Shown in pieces: positions 32,543 to 64,000 of a stretch of DNA of 64,000 nucleotides (position 1 is the stretch's first letter; the number at the start of each line of letters is the position of its first letter). The position numbers and the translations under genes were made by a program. The DNA comes from a virus (taxonomy: Duplodnaviria; Caudoviricetes), in IMG/VR virus record IMGVR_UViG_3300028591_000106, positions 82,597 to 146,596 of that record; one strand, 5' to 3'. Below the pieces are notes generated by a model. That model saw only the letters and a list, made by a program, of their open reading frames with translations. It was not told where the DNA came from and did no database searches.

Positions 32543-33451
32543 ATGGATCAGAAAAAGTATGTTGACATCGAGCGTCTGAAGGACAAGTATGCAATGGCTT
32601 TTAAGGCTGGAGAGCACATCACTGTATCTGAAAAGATTGACGGTGCAAATGCATCTATCCGCTATGATGCGGAGACAGGTTCTCTTGCAGCTTTTTCTCG
32701 TCGTCAGCGACTGACCGAGGATAACAACCTGCAGGGATTCTATGCTTATGTTCTGACTCTTGATCCGGTAAAGTGGGCAGATGTAACTTCTAACGGTCGT
32801 TTCATCGTTTTCGGCGAATGGCTTGTAAAGCACACTATCAAGTATCCGGATGACCTCATGCGTAAGTTCTATGTATTTGATGTTTGGGATACTGAGGCTG
32901 AGCAGTATGTTCCTTGGTTCCTGACCTATCAGATCGCACAGGCACTCGGACTGAAGACTGTACCGATTTTCTATGATGGTGAGTTTACTTCTTGGGAAGA
33001 CCTGTACGCACTTGTCGGTCGTACCGAGATGCAGGCTGAGCCTACTGGCGAAGGTATCGTTATCAAGTCTCAGGATCGTCTTGATAACAAGTTCTCTGGT
33101 ACTCCTGCATATGTAAAGATCGTTGCTAAGGAGTTCTCTGAGGTTCATCAGAGCAAGCCGCAGAAGGAGATTGATCCTGCTAAGATTGCTGCAAAGCAGG
33201 CGGCAGAAGCACAGGTCGAGACTATTGTCACTCAGCGTCGTGTTGAGAAGACTATTCAGAAGTTTGTTGAGGACAATCTTATTCCTGAAGATTGGGACGA
33301 GAAGAGCCTTGGTGCGATCGCTAAGATCCTTCCTCGTGCAGTTTATGATGACTGTGTAAAGGAAGAGCCTGAGACTGTTGCTCAGATTGAGAATTTCGGT
33401 AAGCTGTGCGCTCAGGTTGCAATGAAGCACGCTCGTGCGCTGGTAAAGTGA
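32543..33451 (+). CDS. ATP-dependent RNA ligase, Rnl2-like family
   Basis: EKIDGAN (motif I), FGEW, FYVFDV, EGIVIK, YVKIV. Confidence 0.88.
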   Translation: MDQKKYVDIERLKDKYAMAFKAGEHITVSEKIDGANASIRYDAETGSLAAFSRRQRLTEDNNLQGFYAYVLTLDPVKWADVTSNGRFIVFGEWLVKHTIKYPDDLMRKFYVFDVWDTEAEQYVPWFLTYQIAQALGLKTVPIFYDGEFTSWEDLYALVGRTEMQAEPTGEGIVIKSQDRLDNKFSGTPAYVKIVAKEFSEVHQSKPQKEIDPAKIAAKQAAEAQVETIVTQRRVEKTIQKFVEDNLIPEDWDEKSLGAIAKILPRAVYDDCVKEEPETVAQIENFGKLCAQVAMKHARALVK

Positions 33452-33644: not shown

Positions 33645-34529
33645 ATGGGATTTTTTACAAATAAAGACGGAGATATTAAGATCGGAAGTATTGTGTTTTC
33701 TGCTGTTGTCGCAGTTGCGGCAGCAGCTACACTCATTTCCGCTTGTGAAGAGGTGCCGACTGGTCATACCGGTGTGCAGGTCGTAATGGGTTCTGTTCAG
33801 ACAGAAACACTTGACTCCGGTTTCCATTTGAAGACACCTTTTGTATGTGATGTTGTCGAAGTGGATAATAGGATTCAGAAGATTGAAGTCGATGCAAGTG
33901 CGGTTTCAAAGGACTTGCAGGATATTGCAGCTACTATTGCAATTAACTTCCACCTTGCCCCTGAGGCATCGGTATCTATGTATAAGAGCGTAGGTCTATC
34001 TTATGAGGACTCTATCCTTCAGCCGGCAATTCAGGAAGCTACCAAGTCTATCATGGCGCAGTACAGAGCTGAAGAGCTGATTCAGAGACGCGGCGAAGTA
34101 TCTGTTGCTATTGCTGACCTGATTACTTCTAAGGTCGGAGACTATGGTATTGTAGTCGATGAATTTAACCTGACTAACTTCAGCTTCTCAAAGGCATTTG
34201 ACGATGCTATTGAAGCGAAACTGGTTGCAGAGCAAAACAAGATTAAGGCGGCTACAGAAAACGAGCAGAGAGTTGCAGCTGCTGAAGCTGATGCGGCAGA
34301 AGCAAAGGCTCGTGCAGAAGGTGAAGCCGAAGCTGCAAAGATTAAGGCACAGGGTGAAGCTGAAGCTATTAAGGCAAAGGCTGACGCTGAAGCCGAAGCT
34401 AACCGTAAGATTAGCGAGTCTATTACTCCTGAGCTGATCGACTACAATCGTATCGAGTCTTGGGATGGTAAGCTGCCTTCTGTTATGAGTGGCAGTAATG
34501 GCAATGTAATCGTTGATGCTACTACCTAA
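33645..34529 (+). CDS. SPFH/band-7 (prohibitin-like) membrane protein
   Basis: N-terminal TM, VPTGHTGV, SKDLQ, FSFSKAFDDAIEAK, Ala/Glu coiled coil, WDGKLP. Confidence 0.92.
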   Translation: MGFFTNKDGDIKIGSIVFSAVVAVAAAATLISACEEVPTGHTGVQVVMGSVQTETLDSGFHLKTPFVCDVVEVDNRIQKIEVDASAVSKDLQDIAATIAINFHLAPEASVSMYKSVGLSYEDSILQPAIQEATKSIMAQYRAEELIQRRGEVSVAIADLITSKVGDYGIVVDEFNLTNFSFSKAFDDAIEAKLVAEQNKIKAATENEQRVAAAEADAAEAKARAEGEAEAAKIKAQGEAEAIKAKADAEAEANRKISESITPELIDYNRIESWDGKLPSVMSGSNGNVIVDATT

Positions 34530-37050: not shown

Positions 37051-38229
37051 ATGTTTTATATTGTGACGGGAGCAAATTATGGAGACGAGGGAAAAGGTCT
37101 TGTGACTAATGCTTTTGCAAGTGAAGACTGCCTTGTCGTATTGAGCACTGGATCGTCTCAGCGCGCTCATACTGTTGTACATGACGGGAAGAGAATTGTC
37201 TTTCGTCACTTTGGTAGCGGCACTCTTAAGGGTGCCGCGACCTATTTTGCGAAGGATTTTCTTGTAAACCCTGCTATGTTTAGACAGGAGTATCTGAAGT
37301 TAGAAGCTATGGGTATTACGCCCGTAGTTTATATGCATGAAGATTGTGCATTCGTAACTCCAGTAGATATGTTCGCAAGTATAAATATTGAATCAAGACG
37401 CGAAAATCGTCATGGTACTACTGGATGCGGCGTTTGGGAAGCTATTCGCCGTGGCAAATATGTTGGAGAAATTACTGAAGCTCGTAGAGTAGAAGATGTC
37501 GGATGTATTGACAGTGATTTGATTAAATACTATGAACATCGTCTTGCAGGCATTGAAGATGAAATTCCGCAGGTTGCACTAGACTTTTTGCACGGTCCAG
37601 CATTAGCACACAATTTTAGACAAGATGTAGAATTCATGTTGGATCATATCAAACTTATTCGTTACGATGAAGAAAAGTCATTCCTTCATAAATGGAAAGA
37701 TATTATCTTTGAAAATGGTCAGGGACTACTTCTCGACACAGATTATGTAGGGGAAAGTATATATACTACACCTTGCCATGTTGGTGCGCGTATTCCTGCA
37801 AGAATTATCTTTGAGAATTTTGCAGGCGAAAATCCACAGGTGGAGTCTATCTATGTAACGAGGACCTATCTTACTCGTCATGGCGCAGGTGATTTTGCTA
37901 ATGGTAGTGCAGGTACAACTCTGTATAGCAATCTTTCTCCATATATGACGGAAGATAAGACTAATGTTCCTAATTTTGGTCAAGGTTCTATCCGTTACGA
38001 AGCTTTTGATAATGCAGCAGGTCATGATTTAGTTCGTCGTATTAACGATGATACTAATATTCTTCGCAGCTATGGCATTGATGCATCAATTTCTCTTGCT
38101 GTAACTCATACAAATGAATTTGCATTAGAGAATTTGACACAGCAAATGATATTTAGCAATCCTTATCATTATAAATATAGATTATATACATCTGATAATG
38201 AGGCTACACTCAATTTAGAAGGGGAATAA
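37051..38229 (+). CDS. divergent adenylosuccinate synthetase-like protein
   Basis: GANYGDEGKG, AHTV, HGTTGCG, FENGQGLLLD, TRTYLTRHGAG. Confidence 0.85.
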   Translation: MFYIVTGANYGDEGKGLVTNAFASEDCLVVLSTGSSQRAHTVVHDGKRIVFRHFGSGTLKGAATYFAKDFLVNPAMFRQEYLKLEAMGITPVVYMHEDCAFVTPVDMFASINIESRRENRHGTTGCGVWEAIRRGKYVGEITEARRVEDVGCIDSDLIKYYEHRLAGIEDEIPQVALDFLHGPALAHNFRQDVEFMLDHIKLIRYDEEKSFLHKWKDIIFENGQGLLLDTDYVGESIYTTPCHVGARIPARIIFENFAGENPQVESIYVTRTYLTRHGAGDFANGSAGTTLYSNLSPYMTEDKTNVPNFGQGSIRYEAFDNAAGHDLVRRINDDTNILRSYGIDASISLAVTHTNEFALENLTQQMIFSNPYHYKYRLYTSDNEATLNLEGE

Positions 38230-38479: not shown

Positions 38480-39400
38480 ATGACGGAATTTTATATGATG
38501 ATCGGAATTGCAGGTTCTGGTAAGTCTTTCATTGCAGAGAAGTATGCTCGTTTGCATAATGCTGTTATTGTATCTTCTGATGCAATTCGTGGTGAACTTT
38601 TTGGTGATGAGAATGACCAGACGCATAATGCCGAAGTTTTCGAGGAGGTTCATCGTCGTATTCTGAACGCTCTTAAGGCAGGACAGAACGCGATTTATGA
38701 TGCAACGAATCTTTCTGCAAAGCGCCGCAAGGCATTTTTAACGCAGATCCCTGCTGATGTGGAGAAGATCGCTGTGGTTATTGCTACGGATCTCGATGTT
38801 GCTCTGCGTCAGAATGCAAGCCGTGATCGTCAGGTCCCGCCTGATGTTATCAAGACGATGCTTCTGCGCCTTCAGATGCCTCGTATCAGCGAGGGTTGGA
38901 ATGGTATTGACTACATTTCTAACCCTAACAACAAGAGTGATATTCTTTCTGTCATTAAGCCTTGCGTGGGCTTCGATCAGGATAACCCTCATCACTCTGC
39001 TGAGCTGTTTGACCATATGCAGCAGGCGGCGCAGTATGTCACGATTCATGCTCATGAGTATGGATTCAGTGGTATGGATGAAGCAGAAGTCTATATTGCT
39101 GCACTTATCCATGACATCGGTAAGCCTATTTGTAAGACATATAAGCTGTGGAGTGGAAAGATCGACGATCATGCACATTACTACGGTCATGCCGATGTTG
39201 GTGCATATATGGTCGCTTGCTTACTTCGCACTGTTCCTGCAGAGGATTACGGTCGTTGGATGACGATTCTTGAGCTGATTCAGTATCATATGGACTGCTA
39301 TGCAAGTGACGACTGGCTTGAAAAAATTGATCGTGAAAAGGGTAAGGTTTTCCGTGATAAGATTGCTTTACTTCACGAGGGGGATAAGAATGGACACTGA
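38480..39400 (+). CDS. polynucleotide kinase (P-loop) fused to an HD phosphohydrolase
   Basis: GIAGSGKS, SSDAIR, DATN, NASRDRQVP; HH..H, IHDIGKP, HYYGH, YHM. Confidence 0.88.
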   Translation: MTEFYMMIGIAGSGKSFIAEKYARLHNAVIVSSDAIRGELFGDENDQTHNAEVFEEVHRRILNALKAGQNAIYDATNLSAKRRKAFLTQIPADVEKIAVVIATDLDVALRQNASRDRQVPPDVIKTMLLRLQMPRISEGWNGIDYISNPNNKSDILSVIKPCVGFDQDNPHHSAELFDHMQQAAQYVTIHAHEYGFSGMDEAEVYIAALIHDIGKPICKTYKLWSGKIDDHAHYYGHADVGAYMVACLLRTVPAEDYGRWMTILELIQYHMDCYASDDWLEKIDREKGKVFRDKIALLHEGDKNGH

Positions 39401-39704
39401 AAAGAAATATGCGGTTATTACCTATTTTATCGGTAATGATATCGGTAACGGGGTTAAAGTCGAAGTAGTCGAGCATCTTGGCAAACTACTAACTTGTACT
39501 ATTTGCGACACTCCAATGGGCGCTATCAAAGAATTTGAGTCACAAGTTAATACGCTTTGTTGGAATAAGTGTCTTACTGACTGTATGAAGTCGTATTATA
39601 GAGGCTCAGACAATGTTTGTAGAGATATATTTCTCTATACCGAAGGTGACGATGGTGTTGTTTCACTGTGCCGTGTAGCTATTGTATTGGCAGGTGAATA
39701 TTAA
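39390..39704 (+). CDS. hypothetical protein
   Basis: SD GAGGGG before ATG 39390. Confidence 0.6.
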   Translation: MDTEKKYAVITYFIGNDIGNGVKVEVVEHLGKLLTCTICDTPMGAIKEFESQVNTLCWNKCLTDCMKSYYRGSDNVCRDIFLYTEGDDGVVSLCRVAIVLAGEY

Positions 39705-39892
39705 TGGATCTCACCCTTGAAGAGCTTCAGCTCATTCCCAAAGATGTTTCGCCGCATTAGTTTGAAGAAATCGGTGTCTATAAAAATGTAACTGTTCAAG
39801 TTTTAAGATGTCCCCATTGCGGCGAATTAAGTGTGGGGTGGATTAAACAGCCAGACACTGAAGTCATTTACGAAAAGGAGGAAGAACAATGA
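39704..39892 (+). CDS. small CxxC protein (1 TAG)
   Basis: Coupled at both ends; RCPHCGE. Confidence 0.6.
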
Positions 39893-40284
39893 CATAGGTA
39901 TATATCCTAGCTGGTGTAGCCGCAGCTCTTTTAGTCGCCGGTATTATTGTTGGCAAAGTCGGATCAAATAGGTGTAAGACTGCACTTATTGCTCTGGGCT
40001 TTGTTTTAGGTTTTGCAGGCGTGATTACAGGATTCTTCGGCTATGAAACTTACATCATGCAACCCGTTGAATATTCAATTACAAATTGCCGCGAGGTCGA
40101 GGGCGGATATAAGCTTACCCTTGAAGGATCAATGAAGGGTTTTACTGGCGGCACAGTTTTTGTTACTGTTGATGAAGCAAAATCACTTAATCTTTTGGAA
40201 TGTGATGAAGAAGGTAATTGGAAATGGGTTGGCGGTAAGATCAACGAATCAAGAAATTGGATTTCAGATCACCGCGACAATTAA
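39889..40284 (+). CDS. membrane protein (TAG at codon 3)
   Basis: GGAGG SD, two TM segments, in frame with ORF 40021-40284. Confidence 0.65.
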
Positions 40285-40288
40285 AAAT

Positions 40289-40317
40289 TTGACTTTTTTA
40301 GAAAATTATGATATAAT
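40289..40317 (+). promoter_or_regulatory. sigmaA-type promoter for the ncRNA/tRNA/Ro60-like unit
   Basis: TTGACT-N17-TATAAT. Confidence 0.8.
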
Positions 40318-40353
40318 TATTATATAAGGTTGAGAGAGATCTCACTTATATTT

Positions 40354-40587
40354 ACGGCAGGATAACAGCAATCTATAAAATACAAATTTTATAATAGAGT
40401 ATTGCTAAAATTTTTCTAACCTATTGGGCGCCGAAGAGCCACGGTTAGCGTCGCAGACTACGCAAGTTTGCCGTGGGCTACCCACGAGAGGGGTGGCAGC
40501 AATGATTGCTAAAAGTCATCGGACTAATCGCTACTGCGTGAAAGAGCGATGTAGGGAGACTAAACCTGAAACAAAATTTCCTGTCGT
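40354..40587 (+). ncRNA. putative Y-like RNA 1 (234 nt, multi-hairpin cargo)
   Basis: Terminal stem ACGGCAGGA/TCCTGTCGT followed by TAACAGCAA; GC-rich interior with GNRA-capped hairpins. Confidence 0.6.
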
Positions 40588-40594
40588 GTTATTT

Positions 40595-40668
40595 GCCCGC
40601 GTAGCAGAATTGGCATATGCGTCCGACTCAAAATCGGAAGTTTGTGGGTTCAACTCCCACCGTGGGCA
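40595..40668 (+). tRNA. tRNA-Leu(CAA), short variable loop
   Basis: Cloverleaf; TCCGA-CTCAAAA-TCGGA anticodon arm; GTTCAAC T-loop. Confidence 0.88.
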
Positions 40669-40671
40669 CTC

Positions 40672-40727
40672 AGTCACCAACAGCTAAAACATATTATTAA
40701 AACTTCCAATTTTAAGAATAGGTGACT
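40672..40727 (+). ncRNA. putative Y-like RNA 2 carrying an anticodon stem-loop
   Basis: Stem AGTCACC/GGTGACT, then AACAGCTAA; inner TTAAAA-CTTCCAA-TTTTAA. Confidence 0.6.
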
Positions 40728-40733
40728 AGTCTT

Positions 40734-40786
40734 AGATTCATACAGCAACTCATATTATTTTAATTGGGTAGAATTAAATTGAATCT
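40734..40786 (+). ncRNA. putative Y-like RNA 3
   Basis: Stem AGATTCA/TGAATCT, then TACAGCAA; CATATTATT shared with RNA 2; inner TTTAATT-GGGTAG-AATTAAA. Confidence 0.6.
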
Positions 40787-40804
40787 TGTAAGGAGGAAAA
40801 AGGA

Positions 40805-42277
40805 ATGAATTTTACAGATGCTATGAGAGGCGCAGCTAACCACACTCTTACTGAGAATGGTGCGGCTGTCTATAAGACCACCGGCAATGCAGTCCTTGAC
40901 CTATTTGCCAGAATTGGTGGTATGCGTAATGCAGATCCTCGTGAAGTTGAAGCAGCTTGGCTTCGTGCCCGCGACTTCGATAAGGAGCTTGCAGATAATC
41001 TGATTCTTTATACCCGTAACATTCGTGAGGGCGGTCTCGGTGAGCGTAAGCTCGGTCAGATTATGCTTAAGCTGCTTGCTTTGAAGGATCCTTCTAAGGT
41101 TGCAAGAAACCTCGACACCATTGTCGCGGCTGGTCGTTATGATGACCTGTTTGTACTTCAGGGTACTAAGGTCGAGACCAGTATGATGGAGTACCTGCGT
41201 GCGCAGTTCCGTCAGGACATTGTTGACATGGGGCAGGGCAAGCCTATTTCCCTTCTGGCAAAGTGGCTGCCTTCTTGCAACGCAAGTTCTAAGGAGACTC
41301 GTAAGCTGGCTCGTAAGATGTATGTCTATTTTGGCATCTCTGAGCGCACTTACCGTAAGACTCTTTCTGCTCTGAGAAGCCATCTCGATGTTGTCGAGAA
41401 GAAGATGTCTGCTCAGGAGTTCGACGAAATTGACTATCAGAAGGTTCCTTCTGTAGCCATGACTCGTTACCGCTCTGCTTTCGGTCGTCATGACTTCGAG
41501 CGTTTTGGTGAATATCTTAATGCGGTAAAGAAGGGTGATGCAAAGATCAATGCATCTGTCACCTACCCTTACGAGCTTATTCGCCCTTACATCCTCGGCA
41601 GAAGGGGCTGGGGTTGCCGTACAGCAGCAGCTCTTGATCCTGTTCTTGAGGCACAGTGGAAGGCTCTTCCTAACTATGTCGAGGGCAACCATAATGTTAT
41701 CGTCATGTGCGATACTTCTGGTTCTATGACCTGCGACAACTGCAAGCCTCTTGCAACTTCTGTTTCTCTTGGCATTTACTTTGCGGAGAGAAATACTGGT
41801 GCTTATCAGAACCTCGTTATGAGCTTCTCTCAGTCTCCTGTTTTCTATGAACTGAATCCTCATGATTCTGTTCTTAACAGAACAAATGAGATCCTTCGTC
41901 ACGATCAACTGAACACCAACCTCGACGCAGCTCTTGATGCGGTATACCGTCTTGCAGTTAAGAGTGGAGACGCTCCTTCTGCACTCGTCATCATCTCTGA
42001 TGGTGAGATTGACAGCTACCGTTACCAGAATGCTGCTGACATCGTTGAGAAGTGGCAGGCGATTTATGCAGGAAGCGGTATGGTCGCTCCTAAGCTTATC
42101 ATGTGGAATGTTGAGTCTCGTGGCTCTCGTTACATTGGTAAGAAGGAGAACCCCGGCATTGCATACATCTCTGGTTCTTCTGCTTCTAGCTTCAAGGAGC
42201 TGGCAACGCTGATCTCTATGGATGCAGTTACCGCAATGACTCGTATCCTGACCAAGCCTCAGTTCCAGTGGAAGTAA
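40805..42277 (+). CDS. Ro60/TROVE-related protein (DUF2828-type helical domain + vWA)
   Basis: TENGA..Y.TTG..VLDLF, RNIREGGLGER, GRYDDL, AKWLPS, YRKTLS, VVEKKM, VPSVAM; MIDAS DTSGSM, ISDGEID, WNV. Confidence 0.85.
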   Translation: MNFTDAMRGAANHTLTENGAAVYKTTGNAVLDLFARIGGMRNADPREVEAAWLRARDFDKELADNLILYTRNIREGGLGERKLGQIMLKLLALKDPSKVARNLDTIVAAGRYDDLFVLQGTKVETSMMEYLRAQFRQDIVDMGQGKPISLLAKWLPSCNASSKETRKLARKMYVYFGISERTYRKTLSALRSHLDVVEKKMSAQEFDEIDYQKVPSVAMTRYRSAFGRHDFERFGEYLNAVKKGDAKINASVTYPYELIRPYILGRRGWGCRTAAALDPVLEAQWKALPNYVEGNHNVIVMCDTSGSMTCDNCKPLATSVSLGIYFAERNTGAYQNLVMSFSQSPVFYELNPHDSVLNRTNEILRHDQLNTNLDAALDAVYRLAVKSGDAPSALVIISDGEIDSYRYQNAADIVEKWQAIYAGSGMVAPKLIMWNVESRGSRYIGKKENPGIAYISGSSASSFKELATLISMDAVTAMTRILTKPQFQWK

Positions 42278-62045: not shown

Positions 62046-62161
62046 TAGACATTGTCAGCAAATTCGTATTTTTATACAGGTTAGCTCAGAGGACTAGAGC
62101 ACTCTGGTAAAAACAGAGAGATCATGGGTTCGAATCCCATACCGGCGTGAAAAGATGTCTA
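62046..62161 (+). ncRNA. putative Y-like RNA 4 with an embedded tRNA-like domain
   Basis: Stem TAGACATT/GATGTCTA then GTCAGCAA; intact D, anticodon and T arms but mispaired acceptor stem and no CCA. Confidence 0.65.
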
Positions 62162-62243: not shown

Positions 62244-62344
62244 TCCCGTCGCCCATAGGACGGAAGGTTTTAGGTGCTGTAGGGAGCTATGGGAATCCTC
62301 CCAGCTCAATGAGGTTCTGAAAAATGGATCCGCCTAGCCATCAT

Positions 62345-62418
62345 TGCCGTTTAGTGAAGTGGTAACACACCGGTCTCTAACACCGCAAGCGTGGGTTCGA
62401 ATCCCTCAACGGCAACCA
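62345..62418 (+). tRNA. amber suppressor tRNA(CTA), Gln-type
   Basis: Acceptor TGCCGTT/AACGGCA + ACCA; anticodon loop CTCTAAC; resembles the adjacent tRNA-Gln(CTG). Confidence 0.9.
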
Positions 62419-62819: not shown

Positions 62820-63097
62820 TCAAGACCTTACCCACTTTTCTAGGAAGTGTATTGGTAAGGCTGCTACGATGAAAATGGCATTATAGCATCCGGCTCTGAG
62901 ATAATGTCAAAGCCCATGCAGATTGGGTGAGAGCAGGTTTGGCATCGTTACTGCTCATTTATTGCGTTGGTTGACCGCATATAGTCTACTCGGTTCGCAA
63001 GGAGCCGTGTTACCTAGTAACTCCTATCATGGAAACCCCCTTCGTGAAAGTTGATTAAACTCTGTCGCTACGGCGTCAGTGCTTGAGGGAGACTTGA
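62820..63097 (+). ncRNA. unassigned structured RNA (about 280 nt)
   Basis: Run of hairpins between two tRNAs, no ORF. Confidence 0.55.
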
Positions 63098-63102
63098 TAC
63101 AT

Positions 63103-63177: not shown

Positions 63178-63186
63178 TCAAATATT

Positions 63187-63320
63187 ATCTATGTGGTGGA
63201 ACGGGCAGACACATTTGGGGTGAATCCGTGCCATTGGCAGAAGGAAACCGATCCGAGGAGAAACCCTATGTTATTCACTCGGGAGAGAATAGCGTGCAGG
63301 TTCAAATCCTGTCATAGATA
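63187..63320 (+). ncRNA. tRNA-like RNA with an expanded anticodon domain
   Basis: ATCTATG/CATAGAT acceptor, Leu-type D arm, long variable arm, GGTTCAAATCC T arm; about 40 nt in place of the anticodon loop. Confidence 0.7.
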
Positions 63321-63326
63321 ATAAAT

Positions 63327-63400: not shown

Positions 63401-63499
63401 CTCACGCTAAGTTTCGGATTTTTCTTAGCGTAGGTCTATACAGTCACGAGCAATCTGTGCAAATGTCCAGTAATAGAGATTTGTAAGTGACTGTTTAAT

Positions 63500-63574
63500 G
63501 CGGCATTCGTATAATGGTTATTACATTGCGCTTCCACCGCGAAAATGGGGGTTCGATTCCCCTATGCCGCTCCA
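63500..63574 (+). tRNA. tRNA-Gly(TCC)
   Basis: GCGGCAT acceptor, loop CTTCCAC, TCCA end. Confidence 0.92.
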
Positions 63575-64000
63575 AGGGGAGCTGCTATGTGCATTATGGA
63601 GTCAGCACAGGCTCCGGCAGTTTCCTCTACCAACAGTGCCTAACACGCCTCTTTACAATGCGTACCAAGTTAGGTCTTTTAATGCACTGGGGAAGAAAGT
63701 CACCCCGAACAAGATGATCTAATCATTCAATTAGGACCTCCGTCCGGTTCGCCGGCGAGCAATGAAAGTATCCAGTCTTTCTTAAGGATTCGAGTTCAAA
63801 ACCTTTCCGCTTTTCGGGGTTTTCCGTTAAATAAACCTTATCATAGTAGATGCGAAATCGGGCGGCGTACACTAATGAGCGCAAATAACTAGCAAATCGT
63901 AATATATTAGCTAGCGAGGAGTGAGGAAGTTTGCGTGGGAAATCGTCGTTACCCAAAGTGGCGCGGGAACTGCTTCCGATGCTGTAGGTTCCTTACTATG
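63575..64000 (+). ncRNA. large structured RNA region, probably continuing past the window
   Basis: GC-enriched, dense nested stems, UUCG tetraloop, no credible ORF. Confidence 0.55.

What the first reader, a model, noticed from the sequence alone, without database searches (positions are those of the whole stretch)
40672..40786. Mini-RNA displaying an isolated tRNA-Gly anticodon stem-loop: possible anticodon-nuclease decoy
Seen: inside RNA2 a perfect 6-bp stem TTAAAA/TTTTAA presents the 7-nt loop CTTCCAA (40703-40709), the canonical C32-U33-UCC-A37-A38 Gly loop, with no D or T arm. RNA3 has the same layout (CAGC.A, CATATTATT, AT-rich hairpin) but a different loop (GGGTAG). Established: anticodon nucleases (PrrC, VapC-type and others) are anti-phage effectors. 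Inference: these are swappable anticodon baits held by the Ro-like protein.
Basis: partly seen in the sequence, partly recalled or inferred. Interest (0 to 1): 0.75.

Follow-up and report, generated by a model that had tools for sequence, protein, structure and literature searches.

The report
Anticodon-arm mimic on Ro60-like handle RNA
A 58-base phage RNA carries a look-alike of the tRNA-Gly anticodon arm on a conserved "handle" that travels with a Ro60-shaped protein gene, and such anticodon look-alikes, mostly Lys and Asn, recur far above chance in this apparently undescribed RNA family, which points to a role in the fight over tRNA cleavage.

Summary
A 6-bp stem (40697-40702/40710-40715) presents CUUCCAA (40703-40709), with no D or T arm.

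RNA2 (40672-40729) and RNA3 (40734-40788) belong to a widespread handle RNA family. Members have a covarying 7-10 bp terminal helix, an unpaired (A)CAGCAA just after the 5' strand, and a conserved G after the 3' strand. They lie on the gene strand beside phage DUF2828+vWA genes. The window's DUF2828 protein folds like Ro60.

Handles carry variable payloads: nothing, hairpins, T arms, YrlA-like permuted tRNA bodies, or whole tRNAs. Strict C-U-NNN-A-A seven-base loops occur in 8 of 55 and 21 of 115 small payloads, against 0.3 and 0.7 in shuffles. Lys(UUU) and Asn(GUU) dominate; Gly(UCC) is unique to this window.

This Gly loop is not conserved. The relative with a 98% identical protein has an 8-base loop, and relatives at 70-78% carry other loops.

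The most likely reading is a Y-RNA-like partner RNA displaying an anticodon arm. The nuclease-decoy idea is plausible but untested.

I found no match in Rfam or in the papers searched. This scan has noted the same family in at least 44 other genomes.

The parts
40289..40317 (+). sigma-70-type promoter (TTGACT, 17 nt, TG-TATAAT) that probably drives RNA1, the tRNA, RNA2, RNA3 and the DUF2828 gene as one unit
   Evidence: 11 of 12 matches, extended -10. It is the only promoter-like site between the upstream ORF and the gene. Co-transcription is inferred.
40354..40588 (+). RNA1: handle (9-bp helix ACGGCAGGA/TCCTGTCGT, ACAGCAAT at 40365-40372, G at 40588) enclosing a payload of about 205 nt and unknown structure
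   Evidence: Read. Orthologues in L279 and L284 keep the helix through compensatory changes. No Rfam hit.
40595..40668 (+). tRNA with anticodon CAA and a short variable arm. Its 3' end lies 3 nt before RNA2, so tRNA 3' processing would create the 5' end of RNA2.
   Evidence: 65 bits. A CAA tRNA occupies the same position in L001-L004. The processing link is inferred.
40672..40729 (+). RNA2 (the finding): 5' strand 40672-40678, CAGCUAA 40681-40687, anticodon-arm mimic (stem 40697-40702/40710-40715, loop CUUCCAA 40703-40709), 3' strand 40721-40727, conserved G 40729
   Evidence: Orthologous handles show compensatory helix changes.
40734..40788 (+). RNA3: handle (AGATTCA/TGAATCT, ACAGCAAC, G 40788) with inner hairpin UUUAAUU-GGGUAG-AAUUAAA, ending 2 nt before the Shine-Dalgarno AAGGAGG (40790-40796)
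   Evidence: Model R1 gives 39.3 bits, E 6e-7, but RNA3 was a seed. The inner hairpin is conserved in L278, L283, L285 and L287.
40805..42277 (+). Ro60-like protein gene (DUF2828 + DUF7788/vWA, intact MIDAS residues), the presumed protein partner of the handle RNAs
   Evidence: Pfam PF11443 7e-38 and PF25043 5e-16. PHROG 850 'RNA-binding protein'. AF2 model pLDDT 90.6; its top 13 PDB matches are all Ro60/TROVE, E 3e-9 to 4e-6. D303, S305, S307, T371 and D399 are invariant.
38480..39400 (+). polynucleotide-kinase-like P-loop domain fused to an HD phosphohydrolase (RNA end healing), conserved upstream in relatives
   Evidence: Pfam AAA_33 4e-23 and HD 2e-8. PHROG polynucleotide kinase. The same gene lies upstream in L279, L280 and L287.
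32543..33451 (+). RNA ligase (RNA end sealing)
   Evidence: Pfam PF09414 8e-26. PHROG 548 RNA ligase 1e-52.
62046..62161 (+). a further handle (TAGACATT/GATGTCTA, GUCAGCAAA, G after the helix) enclosing a tRNA-like body that ARAGORN calls tRNA-Phe(AAA)

Best explanation
RNA2 is a small partner RNA, about 58 nt and analogous to a Y RNA, of the Ro60-like DUF2828 protein encoded 76 nt downstream. It is probably made from one transcript together with RNA1, a tRNA and RNA3, and trimmed out partly by tRNA processing. The conserved part is the handle: a terminal helix, the unpaired ACAGCAA-type motif on the 5' side, and a G after the 3' strand. By analogy with the bulged stem and CGAA-type motif that Ro60 reads in Y RNAs, I take this to be the docking site for the protein ring. 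The variable part is a payload that sticks out. In RNA2 it is a copy of a tRNA-Gly(UCC) anticodon arm. Across the family, payloads are tRNA parts: anticodon arms, T arms, permuted tRNA bodies, or whole tRNAs. The particle therefore most likely presents an anticodon loop to a factor that reads anticodon loops. The gene neighbourhood includes an RNA ligase and a kinase-HD end-healing enzyme, and payloads are biased to Lys(UUU) and Asn(GUU). On that basis my leading mechanism is a bait or competitive inhibitor for host tRNA-cutting defence nucleases, possibly resealable by the phage ligase. My odds: partner RNA of the Ro60-like protein about 0.75; anticodon-arm payloads are a selected functional class in the family about 0.8; this Gly copy is itself functional about 0.5; the bait mechanism about 0.25-0.3. 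Shown here: motif conservation, helix covariation, association with the gene, the protein fold, and loop statistics. Inferred: binding, processing and function.
For: (1) Handle family. Near DUF2828 genes, handle-like elements number 105 on the gene strand against 9 on the opposite strand in set 1. In set 2 they number 224 against 5, and 74 of 80 loci have at least one. Background is about 20 per Mb per strand, against 214 per Mb on the set 1 gene strand. (2) Helix covariation: 92.6% of cells paired, against 36-46% when partners are slid, and 63 double-change cells against 15 shuffled. Orthologues of RNA1 and RNA2 show compensatory changes. (3) Reverse association. Of 15 handles found by a DNA pattern alone, 11 contigs hold DUF2828, including all 4 records that are at least 90% complete. 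Only 1 of 102 chance pattern hits does. (4) The protein is Ro60-like by fold. (5) Anticodon-like payloads. Strict CU-NNN-AA loops occur in 8 of 55 payloads (shuffles 0.29) and 21 of 115 (shuffles 0.68), with 0 of 1000 shuffles reaching the observed count in each set and 0 hits in reverse complements. Against 40,777 background hairpins of the same loci the odds ratio is 21.9, p = 4e-27. (6) tRNA-like detail. Stems are 5 bp in 31 of 51, the 36/37 rule holds, and loops are identical to those of real tRNA genes of the same loci. CUUUUAA sits on 10 different stems and CUGUUAA on 7. (7) Anticodon bias. Lys UUU is 13 of 29 strict payloads against 3.9% of tRNA genes (p = 2e-11). Asn GUU is 7 of 29 against 4.4% (p = 2e-4). 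Lys(UUU), Thr(UGU) and Asn(GUU) are the targets of the PARIS nuclease AriB, and that paper raises the idea that overexpressed viral tRNAs may inhibit AriB (PMC12409363). Cas13a cuts U-rich anticodon loops and small loops that mimic them (PMC11042736). (8) RNA repair genes lie within 8 kb.
Against: The Gly loop is not conserved. The relative with a 98% identical protein (L278) has the 8-nt loop AUUUCCAG on the same stem. The 70-78% relatives carry AAUGGG or other loops. So this copy may be drifting. Gly(UCC) occurs once among 51 anticodon-like payloads, and I know of no nuclease aimed at it. About 70% of small payloads are not anticodon-like. About 13 of the 51 loose matches are expected by chance. 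A catalytic nuclease is not easily titrated by a decoy. AriB also needs D-loop contacts, which a bare anticodon arm lacks. The seeds for the covariation count were chosen for having a helix, which inflates the paired percentage. MFE folds of these AT-rich RNAs are only marginally better than shuffles.
Confidence: 0.6

Rival explanations
1. Tether rather than bait. As a Y RNA tethers Ro60 to PNPase, the tRNA-part payload recruits a tRNA-handling enzyme to the Ro60-like ring, where damaged or precursor tRNAs are threaded. Candidates are the phage RNA ligase or kinase-HD, a processing enzyme, or a modification enzyme. The particle would be a repair or quality-control platform.
For: The Ro60/Y RNA paradigm, with YrlA tRNA mimicry in rsr-rtcB repair operons (PMC4201824; PMC12135203; PMC7824862). 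RNA ligase and Pnk-HD lie nearby, and Pnk-HD synteny is conserved. Some handles enclose whole tRNAs, so the protein could meet tRNA precursors directly. An RNA_ligase-family match occurs in 5 of 5 complete handle-bearing genomes, 3 above the cut-off.
Against: A generic tether would not need particular anticodons, yet Lys and Asn are strongly over-represented and the loop triplet is kept on many different stems. There is no baseline for how common RNA ligases are in phages of this size.
Confidence: 0.2
2. Cis-acting leader. RNA2 and RNA3 are 5'-UTR elements through which the Ro60-like protein controls or couples its own translation, and the inner hairpins are spacers without function of their own.
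For: In set 1 a handle ends 11-50 nt before the start codon in most loci, and in several it is empty, with a 9-10 nt interior (L012, L013, L016, L021, L025). RNA3 ends 2 nt before the Shine-Dalgarno sequence. The RNA2 loop is unstable among close relatives.
Against: In set 2 only 9 of 80 loci have a handle within 60 nt upstream of the protein match. 67 handles lie downstream of the gene, and many lie kilobases away in tRNA arrays. A leader model does not explain the enrichment of anticodon-like loops. It may still hold for the proximal handle, RNA3, alongside the partner-RNA role.
Confidence: 0.12
3. Remnant or chance. The Gly-like hairpin is the decaying leftover of a tRNA once nested in the handle, or a chance AT-rich hairpin, and no longer does anything.
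For: Whole tRNAs and tRNA-like bodies nested in handles exist. The loop equals the common tRNA-Gly loop. There are three changes in the loop against none in the stem between the window and the relative with a 98% identical protein. The stem is six A-U pairs, unlike a real anticodon stem.
Against: The strict loop pattern arises in about 0.5% of shuffled payloads, while about 16% of small payloads carry it beyond chance. The hairpin stem is intact in both close genomes, and the spacing of 9 and 5 nt lies within the family range. Rapid loop change with a preserved stem also fits diversifying selection.
Confidence: 0.08

Closest known systems
Ro60/Rsr with Y RNAs: bacterial and phage YrlA/YrlB, D. 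radiodurans Yrn1, Thermus phage phiLo Yrl1/Yrl2 (PMC4201824, PMC12135203)
   Same: A ring-shaped HEAT-repeat plus vWA protein is encoded next to small RNAs. A 5'/3' terminal stem flanks an internal loop that carries a short conserved single-stranded motif. The variable module mimics tRNA. RNA repair genes lie nearby.
   Different: Pfam assigns the protein to DUF2828/DUF7788, not TROVE. It shares about 11-16% identity with solved Ro60 structures, TM about 0.55. The motif is ACAGCAA, not GNCGAA or GGUCCGA. No Rfam Y RNA model matched. RNA2 displays the anticodon arm, the very part that YrlA lacks. Several to a dozen copies occur per genome, scattered in tRNA arrays.
Phage tRNA genes as counter-defence to tRNA-cutting nucleases, such as T5 tRNA-Lys/Thr/Asn against PARIS AriB (PMC12409363)
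   Same: The same anticodons, Lys UUU and Asn GUU, are prominent. Both are phage-encoded and lie in tRNA clusters. That paper raises a possible inhibitory role of overexpressed viral tRNAs.
   Different: Those are complete, chargeable tRNAs that replace the cut ones. RNA2 is a bare anticodon arm on a protein-binding handle and cannot decode.
Dictyostelid Class I RNAs (PMC7919456)
   Same: They are about 60 nt long. A short terminal stem varies in sequence but stays paired. A conserved motif lies directly 3' of the 5' stem strand, with invariant C, C, A, A at positions 6, 9, 10 and 11, which fits CAGCAA. They start with AAG, and the rest is variable.
   Different: They are eukaryotic, with a DUSE promoter, and end in CUGU. 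The known binding protein is the RRM protein Rnp1A/Cibp. No payloads made of tRNA parts are reported. I could not test whether dictyostelids have DUF2828.
Anticodon-arm mimicry in mRNA leaders, such as the E. coli thrS operator (from my own knowledge, not checked here)
   Same: An isolated anticodon-arm look-alike in a 5' leader is read by a protein that normally reads tRNA.
   Different: The thrS operator is bound by its own synthetase for feedback control. Here the mimic sits on a separate conserved handle, and its anticodon varies between genomes.

Membership tests
CAGCAA-handle RNAs of DUF2828 phages (found in neither Rfam nor the papers searched) | Terminal helix of 7-10 bp joining the 5' and 3' ends, variable in sequence but paired | tested here: met
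   AGTCACC/GGTGACT. Family covariation. Compensatory changes in RNA2 orthologues (AGTCGCA/TGCGGCT, GGTCGCTT/AAGCGACT, AGTCACATA/TATGTGACT).
CAGCAA-handle RNAs of DUF2828 phages (found in neither Rfam nor the papers searched) | Unpaired (A)CAGC(A)A(A/U) 0-3 nt after the 5' strand | tested here: met
   ACAGCUAA at 40680-40687, 2 nt after the helix. The U at the fifth position is a minority variant also seen in L001, L002, L006, L028 and L187. Orthologues have CAGCAAU or CAGCAAC.
CAGCAA-handle RNAs of DUF2828 phages (found in neither Rfam nor the papers searched) | Conserved G 1-2 nt after the 3' strand | tested here: met
   G40729 lies 2 nt after the helix. This G is at least 90% conserved in alignment A2 and 82% in set 2.
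CAGCAA-handle RNAs of DUF2828 phages (found in neither Rfam nor the papers searched) | Same strand as, and near, a DUF2828 gene and/or tRNA genes | tested here: met
   76 nt upstream of the gene and 3 nt after a tRNA.
CAGCAA-handle RNAs of DUF2828 phages (found in neither Rfam nor the papers searched) | Physical binding to the DUF2828 protein | not testable with these tools
   Association only.
Y RNA / YrlA (partners of Ro60) | Encoded beside a Ro60 (TROVE) orthologue | tested here: inconclusive
   The neighbour has the Ro60 fold but Pfam places it in DUF2828/DUF7788, not TROVE.
Y RNA / YrlA (partners of Ro60) | Ro-binding motif GNCGAAN0-1G (bacterial) or GGUCCGA (vertebrate) in the 5' strand of the stem | tested here: not met
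   The motif, taken from PMC4201824, is absent. The conserved motif here is ACAGCAA.
Y RNA / YrlA (partners of Ro60) | Match to Rfam Y RNA or YrlA covariance models | tested here: not met
   No such hit at gathering score in the window, or at E up to 10 in 40200-40850, or in 20 related loci.
Y RNA / YrlA (partners of Ro60) | tRNA-like domain with T and D arms (YrlA) | tested here: not met
   RNA2 has neither arm. Other family members do, for example L104 1617-1734 and L011 1918-2034.
tRNA | Cloverleaf with acceptor, D, anticodon and T arms | tested here: not met
   Not called by ARAGORN or by Rfam RF00005.
tRNA | Anticodon arm: 7-nt loop with Y32, U33, purine 37, on a stem of about 5 bp | tested here: met
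   C-U-UCC-A-A on a 6-bp stem. The loop is identical to the commonest tRNA-Gly(UCC) loop in related loci. The stem lacks the G30-C40 pair present in 11 of 29 other mimics.
Dictyostelid Class I RNA | 42-65 nt; 6-bp terminal stem; 11-nt motif next to the 5' strand with T3, C6, C9, A10, A11; start AAG; end CUGU; DUSE promoter (PMC7919456) | tested here: not met
   Length (58 nt), stem, C6, C9 and A11 fit. T3 and A10 do not fit in RNA2. The start is AGU and the end is CUAG(U). The promoter is bacterial. This is a resemblance, not membership.
Anticodon-nuclease decoy (functional class, no sequence definition) | Bound or cut by a tRNA-targeting nuclease, and protects tRNA or phage growth | not testable with these tools
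   Circumstantial only: the anticodon bias and literature on AriB and Cas13a targets.

The most novel reading that the evidence does not exclude
Phages use a Ro60-like ring loaded with handle RNAs as a display rack for bare anticodon arms, mainly Lys(UUU) and Asn(GUU). These arms trap or saturate host tRNA-cutting defence nucleases (PARIS AriB-like, PrrC/RloC-like, Cas13-like) and may be resealed by the phage ligase. This would be an RNA-based anti-defence principle distinct from supplying replacement tRNAs. The same handle may be evolutionarily related to the unexplained Class I RNAs of social amoebae.
Probability: 0.22. Interest if true: 0.9.

Novelty: new variant of a known kind. Interest (0 to 1): 0.72.

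Why it matters
Ro60 and Y RNAs are conserved from bacteria to humans, yet what the tRNA-like part of bacterial Y RNAs is for remains open. This study covers hundreds of phage loci where a Ro60-shaped protein of a different sequence family travels with many small RNAs. Their exchangeable modules are recognisable tRNA parts, and the anticodon arms are biased to Lys and Asn. That bias gives a concrete, testable hypothesis: the module is read by something that discriminates anticodons. It links the system to tRNA-targeting immunity and RNA repair. It also gives DUF2828 a first functional context. DUF2828 occurs in phages, and papers on plant genomes mention it as well. Finally, the work defines a handle motif that could be turned into a covariance model for annotation.

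Tried and rejected
(1) BLAST of the leader against the phage collection, and a scan of IMG/VR with the single protein, found nothing. A profile scan was needed.

(2) Covariance model R1, built from 35 handles, was a poor detector. It found RNA3 but not RNA2, although RNA2 was a seed. The variable interior dominated the model. I used my own helix-plus-motif scanner instead, with opposite-strand and control-locus false-positive rates.

(3) A permissive scan of the whole 146.6-kb genome was swamped by chance hits and is not used.

(4) The DNA pattern scan TAAGAC-N2-5-ACAGCAAT returned mostly chance matches. Of 120 hits, 21 had a closing helix, in 15 loci that I accepted. The rest served as controls.

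(6) A profile search of solved-structure sequences found only vWA domains. The Ro60 relationship is visible only by fold.

(7) A kissing interaction between the RNA2 loop (UUCC) and the RNA3 loop (GGG) was considered and dropped. Relatives with AAUGGG in RNA2 keep GGGUAG in RNA3, so the complementarity is not conserved.

(8) RNA3's GGGUAG as a D-loop mimic is only an impression. GGG-containing loops are modestly enriched, 16 against 5.0 in shuffles, mostly through Pro-type loops.

(9) I considered a terminator or attenuator role for the RNA2 hairpin. The stem is all A-U and there is no T run, so I rejected it.

Full report
**Observation.** RNA2 has a 7-bp closing helix, AGTCACC at 40672-40678 and GGTGACT at 40721-40727. 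Two bases after the 5' strand comes CAGCUAA (40681-40687). Inside is a 6-bp A-U stem (40697-40702/40710-40715) with the 7-nt loop CUUCCAA (40703-40709). RNAfold returns this as both the minimum-energy and the centroid structure, at -9.3 kcal/mol and z = -2.0. ARAGORN and Rfam find a normal tRNA (anticodon CAA) at 40595-40668, but nothing in RNA2 or RNA3. RNA3 (40734-40788) has the same plan and shares CATATTATT with RNA2, so the two are paralogues. A third copy, RNA1 (40354-40588), has the same helix-plus-ACAGCAAU plan around an insert of about 205 nt. One promoter-like site (40289-40317) precedes all of them.

**The neighbouring protein.** The gene at 40805-42277 is DUF2828 plus DUF7788/vWA in Pfam and falls in a PHROG annotated "RNA-binding protein".
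- An AlphaFold model built on 34 homologues has mean pLDDT 90.6.
- Its 13 best PDB matches are all Ro60/TROVE proteins, including Xenopus, human, Deinococcus and Thermus phage phiLo Ro60. They match over about 500-560 aligned columns with E from 3e-9 to 4e-6 and TM about 0.4-0.6.
- The MIDAS residues of the vWA domain are invariant.

"Ro-like" is therefore supported by fold, not by sequence family. Upstream lie a kinase-HD fusion (38480-39400) and, 7 kb away, an RNA ligase (32543-33451). The kinase-HD gene keeps its position in relatives.

**A conserved handle.** I collected 80 IMG/VR loci encoding relatives of the protein. Nearly all carry, on the gene strand, one or more elements built the same way.
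- They have a helix of 7-10 bp, often (U)AAGAC.../...GUCUU.
- After 0-3 bases comes an invariant CAGC, usually within ACAGCAA(A/U).
- A variable interior follows, then the 3' strand, then a G.

With fixed criteria, set 1 has 105 such elements on the gene strand and 9 on the opposite strand. Unrelated viral loci have about 20 per Mb per strand, against 214 per Mb on the set 1 gene strand. A second, independent set of 80 loci came from a scan led by a 33%-identical relative. It gave 224 elements against 5, and 74 of 80 loci have at least one.

The helix covaries: 92.6% of cells are paired, against 36-46% when the partner is slid, and 63 double-change cells against 15 in shuffles. The seeds for that count were chosen for having a helix, so I rest more weight on the strand asymmetry and on compensatory changes in orthologues of RNA1 and RNA2.

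The association also holds in reverse. Of 15 handles found by a DNA pattern alone, 11 lie on contigs with a DUF2828 gene, including all four records that are at least 90% complete. Only 1 of 102 chance pattern hits does. Handles lie upstream of the gene, downstream of it, and kilobases away inside tRNA arrays. So they are not merely a 5' leader.

**Payloads.** Among 266 non-redundant handles:
- 15 are essentially empty;
- 169 carry a small insert without a T loop;
- 12 carry a small insert with a T arm;
- 41 carry a longer insert with a T loop;
- 29 carry a long insert without a T loop.

The T-loop inserts include whole tRNAs (L012 510-627, L062 2354-2464, window 62046-62161). They also include bodies ordered T arm, hairpin, D arm, as in YrlA (L104 1617-1734, L011 1918-2034).

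Is the anticodon-like loop more than chance? I counted non-redundant small payloads (20-70 nt, no T loop) that hold a hairpin with a stem of at least 4 bp and a 7-nt loop of each pattern.

| Set | Payloads | YU-NNN-RN observed | Shuffles | CU-NNN-AA observed | Shuffles |
|---|---|---|---|---|---|
| Set 1 | 55 | 19 | 4.8 ± 2.0 | 8 | 0.29 ± 0.53 |
| Set 2, analysed after the hypothesis was fixed | 115 | 32 | 8.3 ± 2.7 | 21 | 0.68 ± 0.81 |

- In every cell, 0 of 1000 dinucleotide shuffles reached the observed count.
- Reverse complements gave no strict loop in either set.
- The same loci hold 40,777 background hairpins once tRNAs and handles are masked. Against these, payload hairpins are enriched 21.9-fold for the strict pattern (p = 4e-27) and 3.3-fold for the loose one.

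The details are those of real tRNAs.
- Predicted loop sizes peak at 7 nt.
- The stem is 5 bp in 31 of 51 cases.
- G36 is followed by G37 in 8 of 8 cases, and U36 or A36 by A37 in 39 of 40.
- The loops are letter-for-letter those of the real tRNA genes in the same loci, for example CUUUUAA, CUGUUAA, UUUGGGA and CUUCCAA.
- The same loop sits on many different stems and handles: CUUUUAA on 10 stems and CUGUUAA on 7. This argues for selection on the loop rather than shared descent.

Usage is skewed. Lys(UUU) makes up 13 of 29 strict payloads but 3.9% of tRNA genes (p = 2e-11). Asn(GUU) makes up 7 of 29 against 4.4% (p = 2e-4). Anticodon-arm display is a real payload class of this family.

**The weak point of this particular copy.** I fetched the closest relatives and compared leaders.
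- In the genome whose protein is 98% identical (L278), the RNA2 stem is unchanged but the loop reads AUUUCCAG. That is 8 nt, with three changes.
- In relatives at 70-78% identity, the RNA2 payload has an AAUGGG loop (L279, L287) or other folds (L283-L285).
- At 66-67% identity (L001-L004), the same position carries AUUGAAA or UUGAUAU loops.

By contrast, RNA3's hairpin is identical in four relatives. So the payload at the RNA2 position turns over fast, and the canonical Gly loop is specific to this genome. Gly(UCC) is also unique among the 51 anticodon-like payloads. The phage's own tRNA-Gly(UCC) at 63500-63574 has the loop CUUCCAC. Fast turnover fits both an arms race and relaxed constraint, and I cannot tell which applies.

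**Mechanism.** Known Y RNAs have a terminal stem and an internal loop with a short motif (GNCGAA in bacteria, GGUCCGA in vertebrates) that Ro60 reads. A variable module tethers or mimics something else; YrlA mimics a tRNA body (PMC4201824; PMC12135203). The handle RNAs are built on the same logic with a different motif and a different protein family.

I therefore read RNA2 as a partner RNA of the Ro60-like protein whose exposed module is an anticodon arm. The bias to particular anticodons implies a reader that discriminates anticodons.
- The PARIS nuclease AriB cuts tRNA-Lys(UUU), Thr(UGU) and Asn(GUU), with minor products from His and Pro. It needs no base modifications.
- The authors of that paper raise the possibility that overexpressed viral tRNAs inhibit it (PMC12409363).
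- Cas13a cuts U-rich anticodon loops and small loops that imitate them (PMC11042736).
- Eleven of 29 strict mimics keep the G30-A31/U39-C40 pairs next to the loop.

With a ligase and an end-healing enzyme nearby, a bait or inhibitor for such nucleases is my leading specific mechanism, at about 0.25-0.3. A tether for repair or processing enzymes comes next, at about 0.2. Then a cis-acting leader role, most plausible for RNA3, at about 0.12. Last is a functionless remnant, at about 0.08. None of these is shown.

**Comparison and novelty.** RNA2 is not a member of the Rfam Y RNA, YrlA or tRNA families and lacks the Ro60-binding motif. It works like a Y RNA by architecture and context.

They are about 60 nt long, with a short covarying terminal stem. 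A motif next to the 5' strand has invariant positions that fit CAGCAA, and they start with AAG. This is a striking resemblance that I could not test further.

Searches for DUF2828, for Ro60 in phages, and for anticodon decoys found no description of these RNAs. The jumbo-phage survey mentions only that some phages carry a TROVE protein with a tRNA-like partner. Earlier notes of this scan report the same CAGCAA-handle family in at least 44 other genomes, with the same reading. My tests here were made independently of those notes.

I rate it a new variant of a known kind: a Ro60/Y-RNA-type particle, with a new protein family, a new handle motif, and anticodon-arm payloads.

Noticed in passing
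window 62345-62418, 39704-39892, 39889-40284: The phage appears to read TAG as a sense codon. A tRNA with anticodon CUA sits beside tRNA-Gln(CUG) and tRNA-Gln(UUG), and several ORFs have in-frame TAGs. The DUF2828, kinase-HD and RNA ligase genes have none.
   Followed up: partly
window 40595-40668; L001 2244-2326, L002 2290-2363: A tRNA with anticodon CAA always sits between the RNA1-type and RNA2-type handles in this lineage. In the window and in L002 it has a short variable arm, which is unusual for a Leu tRNA; in L001 it has a long one. CAA is the second commonest anticodon among tRNAs near DUF2828 genes (37 of 636).
   Followed up: partly
window 40373-40578: The payload of RNA1 is a partly GC-rich sequence of about 205 nt with several predicted helices and no Rfam match. 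Relatives L279 and L284 keep an insert of similar size in the same handle.
   Followed up: no
window 63440-63494: A handle-like element has GAGCAAU in place of CAGCAAU (helix ACAGTCAC/GTGACTGT) and no G after the helix. It lies between tRNA genes and may be a degenerate or variant copy.
   Followed up: no
window 62244-62344, 62820-63100, 63180-63326, 63575-63720: Long GC-richer spacers between the tRNA genes look structured but are unassigned. One holds a borderline Rfam abiF RNA hit at 63639-63675 (39 bits, gathering score 37).
   Followed up: no
window 37051-38229 and 33645-34529: A divergent adenylosuccinate-synthetase-like gene (PF00709, 2e-24) and a Band 7/SPFH gene lie between the RNA ligase and the kinase-HD gene.
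   Followed up: no
L279 and L287 (RNA2 position); window 40767-40772: G-rich loops recur in this lineage on different stems. AAUGGG occurs in two relatives at the RNA2 position, and GGGUAG in RNA3 of five genomes. Family-wide, GGG-containing loops are modestly enriched (16 against 5 in shuffles).
   Followed up: partly
L041 2405-2484, L043 2399-2483, L050 1341-1429, L063 2402-2484: Some handles carry only a T-arm look-alike (GGTTCAAATCC type) as a small payload. This second single-arm payload class sits immediately upstream of the DUF2828 gene in three of the four, L050 being the exception.
   Followed up: partly
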